From positions 51,522,001 to 51,586,000 of the forward strand of contig OX597822.1 in NCBI GenBank assembly GCA_951406725.2: 64,000 nucleotides of DNA, read 5' to 3'. The notes beneath the pieces are model-generated. The model was not told the DNA's origin. It searched no databases and worked only from the letters and a program-made list of their open reading frames with translations. A program made the position numbers and the translations under genes. Shown piece after piece: positions 47,865 through 48,194 of the stretch (positions are counted from its first letter, which is position 1; each line of letters opens with the position of its first letter). The stretch is from Octopus vulgaris (Eukaryota).

Positions 47865-47970
47865 AATGATTTATGACCATAGGTATGATAATTATGATCA
47901 TGGCACATTTCCTTGTGGAGGATGTGGCCACGTTGTTCAGCAAAAACAACCACATATGATAAATGTTTTA

Positions 47971-48020
<50 letters not shown>

Positions 48021-48120
48021 TAAAACATTTATCATATGTGGTTGTTGTTTTTGCTTGGCCATATCCTCCACAAGGAAATGTGCCATGATCATAATTACGA
48101 TACCTATGGTCATAAATCAT

Positions 48121-48121
<1 letters not shown>
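47865..48121. repeat. near-perfect ~257-bp palindrome centred on (TA)n
   Basis: AATGATTTATGACCATAGGTAT..GGCACATTTCCTTGTGGAGGAT..CACATATGATAAATGTTTTATAAT-(TA)n-reverse complement; two small indels between arms. Confidence 0.96.

Positions 48122-48194
<73 letters not shown>

What the first reader, a model, noticed from the sequence alone, without database searches (positions are those of the whole stretch)
47865..48143. Young fold-back inverted duplication primed at a (TA)n tract; recurrent pattern in this window
Seen: structure A-(TA)n-A'-(TA)n(TG)n, where A' is a nearly exact ~100-bp reverse copy of the left flank placed inside the microsatellite; no TSD or transposon termini. With 13562 and 40220 this makes three (TA)n-centred palindromes in 64 kb. 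Knowledge: (TA)n is self-complementary, extrudes cruciforms and is break-prone. Inference: breakage and self-priming at (TA)n copies the flank back, a microsatellite-driven generator of long hairpins that could continually supply dsRNA substrates (ADAR editing is extensive in coleoids) or new miRNA-like hairpins.
Basis: partly seen in the sequence, partly recalled or inferred. Interest (0 to 1): 0.75.

Follow-up and report, generated by a model that had tools for sequence, protein, structure and literature searches.

The report
Single-copy fold-back beside a TA repeat
A 105-letter piece of unique DNA sits next to its own reversed copy across a TA repeat, and it likely arose by a local copying or repair slip; it is probably not recent, and such TA-centred hairpins are rare here, where most hairpins are likely ends of Penelope-like jumping genes.

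Summary
The structure is real: arm A (47866-47974), (TA)21, reversed copy A' (48017-48120), then (TA)11(TG)24. The arms match at 98 of 101 aligned bases, with two indels. Four genome searches found only these two copies. Contigs from other studies show the A'-(TA)n junction and both arm versions in haplotypes about 1% diverged, so it is not an assembly artefact and probably not young. Of the two other cited sites, 40220 is a real fold-back and 13562 is only simple repeat.

The proposed general rule fails. In 1.6 Mb sampled, 1 of 125 local inverted repeats had a (TA)n centre. In contrast, 48 of 95 non-SINE ones had (TA)n at an outer end (1.4% expected). That is the published Penelope-like element (PLE) architecture, which earlier notes of this scan also reported in other windows of this genome. 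The focal hairpin lacks the PLE family, tail, hammerhead and ORF. It is most likely a local template-switch or break-repair fold-back (about 0.6); a PLE relic is the main rival (0.25). Transcription and editing are untested. Low interest.

The parts
47866..47974 (+). Arm A, single-copy and continuous with unique left flank; inferred template of the duplication
   Evidence: alignment; only the two arms in the genome; no repeat hits in 47201-48200 against the 1-Mb sample
47975..48016 (.). Central (TA)21, the turn of the hairpin; whether it caused the fold-back or grew afterwards is unresolved
48017..48120 (-). Arm A', reverse-complement copy of A with 3 substitutions, an 8-nt and a 3-nt indel
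   Evidence: junction contig in run X5
48118..48125 (+). Return junction: the end of A' runs into (TA)n and shares ATT microhomology with the original entry into the TA tract
   Evidence: junction, template continuation and original entry printed side by side; reading it as a return switch is inference
48121..48191 (.). (TA)11(TG)24, inferred remainder of the ancestral microsatellite
40220..40566 (.). Second real fold-back: arms of about 108 nt with 12 mismatches in low-complexity DNA around a TA tract, starting inside the end of a fragment of a PLE-type family (40082-40231)
13562..13681 (.). (CA)n(TA)n(TG)n simple repeat; not evidence of a fold-back

Best explanation
This is a single-copy inverted duplication that likely formed in place, when a DNA end in or beside a (TA)n(TG)n tract folded back or switched template, copied about 105 nt of its own left flank in reverse and rejoined the tract. 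Shown: the geometry, single-copy status, presence of both arm versions in about 1%-diverged haplotypes, ATT microhomology at the return junction, and the rarity of TA-centred hairpins in the sample. Inferred: the ancestral state flank-A-(TA)n(TG)n, the trigger (fork stall or cruciform cleavage at the TA tract), the polymerase, and neutrality. No function is indicated. It would form a long RNA duplex only if transcribed through, which is untested.
For: The arm has no other copy: DNA searches, a 24-mer at up to 1 mismatch, a 32-letter pattern at up to 3 mismatches, a translated search and blastn at word size 7 against 224 held loci. An insertion as old as the arms' 3% substitution difference should have findable siblings (inference). 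A runs into unique flank with no (TA)n within 400 nt, no hammerhead-like motif and no significant PLE ORF remnant in 44001-52000. Junction microhomology. A few other microsatellite-centred fold-backs occur in the sample, all with self-complementary centres: L053:8088, L179:664, L007:6877 (repeated fold-back) and L048:6241; the last two were picked by eye. Precedents: event type 3-2-1-4 creates an inverted repeat (PMC5453318, passages); local foldback inversions at breaks (PMC11724301, abstract); TA repeats as cruciform-forming break sites repaired by MMEJ (PMC13645644, passages).
Against: No allele lacking A' was shown, so the ancestral state is inferred. The A'|(TA)n outer junction is exactly the junction type of PLE insertions in this genome. 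One of 26 inverted copies of a hammerhead-bearing PLE-type family (L112) also has a long (TA)n at its centre. That shows both that PLE-type insertions can give this geometry and that a central TA tract could grow from a TTAT|ATAA symmetry centre after the event. The yeast foldbacks are mostly 5-34 bp, shorter than here. Enrichment of self-complementary centres is not significant (p = 0.11), and no excess of short flanking arms was seen at 175 clean TA tracts.
Confidence: 0.58

Rival explanations
1. Relic of a head-to-head Penelope-like insertion from a rare or extinct family: A plus a tail on the left, A' abutting the (TA)n target on the right, with the left target tract lost.
For: This is the commonest architecture among non-SINE hairpins in the sample: 44 of 95 have (TA)n at one outer end and 31 of those 44 have another (TA)n 30-100 nt beyond the other arm; 5 of 44 have none within 300 nt, like the focal case. 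GIY-YIG-coding loci L149 and L158 show arm|(TA)n at one end and a 34-40 nt tail at the other. L112 has the same A-(TA)n-A'-(TA)n order. Published: inverted 5'-truncated copy, 30-40 bp tail and (TA)n targets, with octopus Naiads listed as (TA)n-preferring (PMC8557442 passages and supplement).
Against: No sibling copies, whereas 40 of 48 edge-TA hairpins have relatives within only 1.6 Mb. No tail-side TA, no hammerhead-like motif (weak, since Naiads lack it and only 4 of 48 edge-TA hairpins passed the scan) and no ORF remnant.
Confidence: 0.25
2. PLE enzymes acting without their RNA: the GIY-YIG nuclease nicks the host (TA)n and the freed end is extended on the neighbouring host strand, giving a PLE-like junction on unique DNA.
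For: Abundant young PLEs (6136 GIY-YIG candidates, many in 781-aa open frames) that target (TA)n; the same outer junction type; the 40220 fold-back starts inside a PLE-family fragment. A purified PLE protein cuts both strands at AT-rich DNA with an ATT preference (PMC11167929, parts 1-2 read), and ATT is the junction microhomology here.
Against: No direct evidence. ATT is common in this AT-rich DNA. Other microsatellite-centred fold-backs (L053, L007, L048) lack an outer TA tract. Host repair explains the same product.
Confidence: 0.12
3. Arm A is a coding exon (acceptor-like site at 47849, a 40-codon frame ending in TAA just before the TA tract) and A' forms a regulatory duplex with it.
For: The frame is open in A. 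The one listed change in a diverged haplotype's arm (47922) is synonymous, and the 2-nt deletion at 47846 leaves an AG (reading by hand).
Against: No homologue among longer proteins (weak by the tool's own note), no paralogue, and only a below-cut-off Pfam hit (E 0.0012 among 150 queries). No host-gene domain passed a Pfam cut-off in the 150 frames scanned (147 of the 259 listed, plus 3 shorter ones added by hand).
Confidence: 0.04
4. Assembly artefact (fold-back chimera of a long read).
For: No laid contig spans the whole hairpin; 4 of 8 runs pass through A unbroken.
Against: The arms differ by 3 substitutions and 2 indels. Run X5 holds a contig joining (AT)n to the outer end of the arm with 2 differing letters. 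Four runs of three studies break at 47918, where the 31-mer graph must branch. Run X4 carries the A'-type inner block.
Confidence: 0.01

Closest known systems
Short template-switch mutations, four-point model, type 3-2-1-4 (Loytynoja and Goldman 2017, PMC5453318; passages read)
   Same: One reverse-complement copy of nearby sequence inserted in place, creating an inverted repeat with no element family.
   Different: Here both switch points lie in or at one microsatellite and the copied piece is about 105 nt. The ancestral allele needed to fit the model was not obtained.
Local foldback inverted duplications at double-strand breaks in yeast (Yu et al. 2024, PMC11724301; abstract read)
   Same: Foldback by microhomology next to a break, synthesis, then end joining.
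   Different: Mostly 5-34 bp, at an induced break in yeast; not described at TA tracts in the abstract.
EN+ Penelope-like element insertion unit, Naiad and Neptune types (Craig et al. 2021, PMC8557442; passages and supplementary metadata table read)
   Same: Inverted arms with one outer end abutting (TA)n. This fits the most frequent non-SINE hairpin type in the sample, including window 24743-24956 by family.
   Different: The focal arms are single-copy, with no tail-side TA, no hammerhead-like motif and no RT or GIY-YIG remnant.
ODIRA inverted triplications (Brewer et al. 2015, PMC4689423; abstract read)
   Same: Inverted centre copy with junctions at short self-complementary sequence.
   Different: ODIRA needs an origin-bearing extrachromosomal intermediate and makes large amplicons; this event is about 0.1 kb.
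Hairpins as raw material for new miRNAs: template-switch miRNAs (10.1101/2023.04.19.537475; passages) and CA/TG microsatellite miRNAs of the Sfmbt2 cluster (PMC3212979; abstract)
   Different: No expression evidence here. The 105-bp stem is longer than the 30-55 bases used as the miRNA-like criterion in the first paper.

Membership tests
Penelope-like element insertion | Inverted truncated copy adjacent to the main copy | tested here: met
   geometry only
Penelope-like element insertion | (TA)n target abutting an outer end | tested here: met
   A' runs straight into (TA)11
Penelope-like element insertion | One-sided tail followed by the other target half | tested here: not met
   no (TA)>=4 within 400 nt left of A; 31 of 44 one-edge hairpins have one at 30-100 nt
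Penelope-like element insertion | Dispersed family of related copies | tested here: not met
   only the two arms
Penelope-like element insertion | Hammerhead motif in the pLTR | tested here: not met
   own motif scan, none in the window; positive in 29 of 30 loci of the L093 family and 7 of 2000 random pieces; Naiads lack canonical ones, so not decisive
Penelope-like element insertion | RT and GIY-YIG coding remnant | tested here: not met
   tblastn with the L143 frame: best E 2.5 in 44001-52000, nothing at E 0.01 in the window; only this one PLE protein was tried
MITE or DNA transposon | Dispersed terminal inverted repeats | tested here: not met
MITE or DNA transposon | Target-site duplication | tested here: not met
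   outer ends read directly
Template-switch or foldback duplication | Inserted piece is a reverse-complement copy of adjacent single-copy DNA | tested here: met
Template-switch or foldback duplication | Microhomology at the switch points | tested here: met
   self-complementary TA at the turn and ATT at the return; short and weak
Template-switch or foldback duplication | Ancestral allele with A but without A' | tested here: inconclusive
   X2 and X3 (one sample) pass through A unbroken at depth 7 and 13, but X4 also does so while carrying A'-type letters
miRNA precursor or ADAR substrate | Transcribed through both arms; processed or edited | not testable with these tools
   only assembled contigs of DNA-type or unlabelled runs were laid; Rfam hits here are below-threshold simple-repeat matches

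The most novel reading that the evidence does not exclude
The (TA)n-targeting Penelope-like machinery that fills this genome with hairpin stubs also acts empty on host DNA, nicking TA tracts and folding unique flanks into 100-bp perfect hairpins. A retrotransposon enzyme would then be making new host hairpins (roughly 1-2.5 per Mb by the sample) without inserting any of its own sequence, in a lineage with extreme A-to-I editing.
Probability: 0.12. Interest if true: 0.6.

Novelty: new member of a known kind. Interest (0 to 1): 0.22.

Why it matters
As a single locus it matters little: one probably neutral inverted duplication. The useful result is the correction. In the 1.6-Mb sample of this likely octopus genome, hairpins are tied to (TA)n mainly because Penelope-like elements appear to insert there, not because (TA)n primes its own flanks; TA-centred host fold-backs are a small minority. 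Octopus was reported to have an exceptionally high fraction of loci able to form near-perfect dsRNA and the strongest hyper-editing signal along with frog (PMC5625713, passages). PLE stubs are therefore the first place to look for editing substrates. The minor class would become interesting only if it proved to depend on PLE enzymes.

Tried and rejected
Whole-window inverted-repeat search was swamped by trinucleotide arrays, so it was replaced by a masked self-BLAST. The first hammerhead scan was too strict: it returned 0 of 48 and missed a motif visible by eye in L093. It was relaxed. Rfam gave no hammerhead hit at E 1e-5 in 7 loci and only simple-repeat miRNA look-alikes below threshold in the window. 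One search's 'start 60-85' tally (14) mishandled minus-strand loci; counted from its table, 24 of 26 inverted partners start at 63-81 and 17 at exactly 77. The idea that the extra arm piece in L112 is captured host DNA was rejected: it is the family's own longer sequence. The L053:8088 arm proved to have 8 related matches at 2 mismatches, so it is not strictly unique DNA. L086:3175, one of two TA-centred hits, is a SINE-SINE pair. No RNA holder was listed. Parts of the stretch without contig cover in X1, X6 and X7 were not used as evidence of absence. The coding-exon reading found no support. The arm differences are not an A-to-G cluster. Look-ups of earlier notes for single-copy TA-centred fold-backs and for this place returned nothing. 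Paper searches (listings only) showed no paper on TA-centred host fold-backs in cephalopods; the library lacks most subscription papers. The random sample is 160 stretches of 10 kb, 0.06% of the genome, placed by hand at round coordinates.

Full report
1. Observation. The window lies at G000:C9:51522001-51586000 of a 2.80-Gb genome, likely an octopus (inference from genome size and repeat content; earlier notes say the same). Arm A is 47866-47974, followed by (TA)21 at 47975-48016, arm A' at 48017-48120 and (TA)11(TG)24 to 48191. The arms match at 98 of 101 aligned bases, with GA/CG at 47887-47888, G/A at 47924, an 8-nt and a 3-nt indel. The fold has z = -23.6. Of the two other sites named, 40220-40566 is a real fold-back (score 229, control maximum 101 of 1124; motif found once per strand). 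13562 is simple repeat only, and its CA-TA-TG order is not in excess (4 of 1143 tracts, about 9 expected).

2. Copy number. DNA searches with A and with 555 nt of flank plus A returned only the two arms. So did a 24-mer at 1 mismatch, a 32-letter pattern at 3 mismatches, a translated search and blastn against 224 held loci. The tool warns that DNA searches skip common words, but the pattern searches count matches directly. A is not a dispersed TIR.

3. Reality and age. Contigs of 8 runs were laid on 47200-47974. Shared 31-mers between the arms begin at 47889, so a second copy should end the left contig at 47918. It does so in 4 of 8 runs (X1, X5, X6, X7; three studies). X1 may be the source sample, and the two 2019 studies carry the same flank variants and may not be independent of each other. 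X5 also holds a 70-nt contig of (AT)n joined to 47867-47918 with 2 differing letters, which I read as the A' outer junction, and a contig with the A-type inner block. X4 carries the A'-type inner block. X5, X6 and X7 differ from the window at 7 letters and 2 gaps in 717 nt, and X4 shares those flank variants. So both arms and their differences predate haplotypes about 1% apart. Against a firm date: a second haplotype within X2 and X3 is locally more diverged (4 of 114 and 6 of 115 letters). The four runs that pass through unbroken (X2, X3, X4, X8) have depth 2-13; X2 and X3 are at most a weak hint of a one-arm allele. For scale, 15 of 48 edge-TA hairpins in the sample have arms at least 97% identical.

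4. Test of the general claim. I sampled 160 stretches of 10 kb. Among 125 local inverted repeats (at least 40 matched complex bases, at least 80% identity, spacer up to 600), 1 had a (TA)n centre. After setting aside 30 SINE-like pairs, 48 of 95 had (TA)>=4 within 10 nt of an outer end, against 281 of 20000 random segments. Of 44 with one such end, 31 had a second tract 30-100 nt beyond the other arm, and 40 of the 48 had relatives in the sample. Centre-anchored tests gave 2 of 661 TA blocks (one a SINE pair), 0 of 724 other blocks and 8 of 1983 swapped controls. With high-copy repeats masked they gave 2 of 586 self-complementary against 0 of 1165 other blocks (p = 0.11). Short arms showed no excess at 175 clean TA tracts. 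By eye there are two more microsatellite-centred cases (L007:6877, L048:6241). A minor class of about 1-2.5 per Mb may therefore exist, but it is not shown to be enriched.

5. What the common hairpins are. One family was followed (L093:5575; 1430 candidates, 30 loci). 29 of 30 loci start at a (TA)n, 26 have an inverted partner ending in (TA)n, 24 of those begin 63-81 nt in from the terminus, and 29 of 30 carry a hammerhead-like motif. No ORF was linked to this family. Separately, GIY-YIG loci include RT plus CxxC plus GIY-YIG frames, and L149 and L158 have arm|(TA)n at one end and a 34-40 nt tail at the other. This matches Craig et al. 2021 (PMC8557442; passages; supplement table listing octopus Naiads with (TA)n preference). 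The tails in the short families are longer than the published 30-40 bp. I reached this reading before opening the earlier notes, several of which say the same for other windows; they are not independent support.

6. Mechanism for the focal site. Inferred ancestor: flank-A-(TA)n(TG)n. A 3' end in the TA tract likely paired with itself or the opposite strand, copied A in reverse and returned to the tract, where the last three copied letters (ATT) match the original entry. Precedents: template-switch type 3-2-1-4 (PMC5453318, passages), foldback inversions at breaks (PMC11724301, abstract) and TA fragility with MMEJ repair (PMC13645644, passages). Two cautions apply. The outer junction is of the PLE type, and L112, a copy of the family above, has a long central (TA)n after a TTAT end. 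So PLE-type insertion can give this geometry, and a central TA tract may be a consequence of the symmetry rather than its cause. The focal site fails four PLE tests: family, tail, hammerhead and ORF. Odds: local fold-back 0.58, PLE relic 0.25, PLE enzyme acting on host DNA 0.12, coding exon with regulatory duplex 0.04, artefact 0.01.

7. Function. Nothing here shows transcription. The Pfam scan of 150 frames found transposon domains but no host-gene domain above cut-off. The idea that such events supply miRNA-like hairpins is in print for mammals (10.1101/2023.04.19.537475, passages; PMC3212979, abstract), and the high dsRNA potential of octopus is reported (PMC5625713, passages). The hammerhead core motif and the label 'Neptune-like' rest partly on recall.

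8. Verdict. A real, single-copy, probably neutral inverted duplication of a known kind. The claimed microsatellite-driven generator is not the main hairpin source in the sample. Interest 0.22.

Noticed in passing
window 24743-24956 (related copy at 41429-41574): Palindrome with arms of about 95 matched bases and no central TA.
   Followed up: partly
L112:1501-2190 (G000:C8:17921614 region): Copy of a hammerhead-bearing, TA-targeted family with about 110 nt of TA-rich repeat at the exact centre of its inverted arms; 1 of 26 such copies.
   Followed up: yes
L007:6877-7154: Repeated fold-back: a 26-nt piece occurs four times in alternating orientation around two (CA)n(TA)n tracts, inside 72-nt single-copy arms.
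   Followed up: no
L179:560-800: Miniature duplication-inversion-duplication anchored on a TA-rich tract.
   Followed up: no
L227 and L228: Longer (about 2 kb) members of the L093:5575 family with direct and inverted terminal repeats and a CA-rich interior with no long ORF; likely non-autonomous.
   Followed up: partly
L143, L148 and many other loci: Young PLE family with a 781-aa open frame (RT, CxxC, C-terminal GIY-YIG) in many near-identical copies; may be recently active.
   Followed up: no
window 47840-47973: Acceptor-like site followed by a 40-codon open frame ending just before the TA tract; no homologue found.
   Followed up: partly
window 47929-47949: The 8-nt segment present only in arm A contains GTTGTT, complementary to AACAAC about 10 nt downstream; possibly a second small template switch.
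   Followed up: no
window 3540-4592: Degraded mariner-type transposon (HTH_48 and Transposase_1 hits).
   Followed up: no
window 48467-49228: Cluster of high-copy SINE-like repeats in inverted orientation 250 nt downstream of the hairpin; also able to pair if transcribed.
   Followed up: no
window 38279-38389: 5S rRNA-like match just under Rfam's gathering score (35.6 against 38 bits), likely a pseudogene.
   Followed up: no
window 47301-47780: One sample (X2, X3) is strongly heterozygous here, and three of its second-haplotype variants are shared with the diverged runs X4-X7.
   Followed up: no
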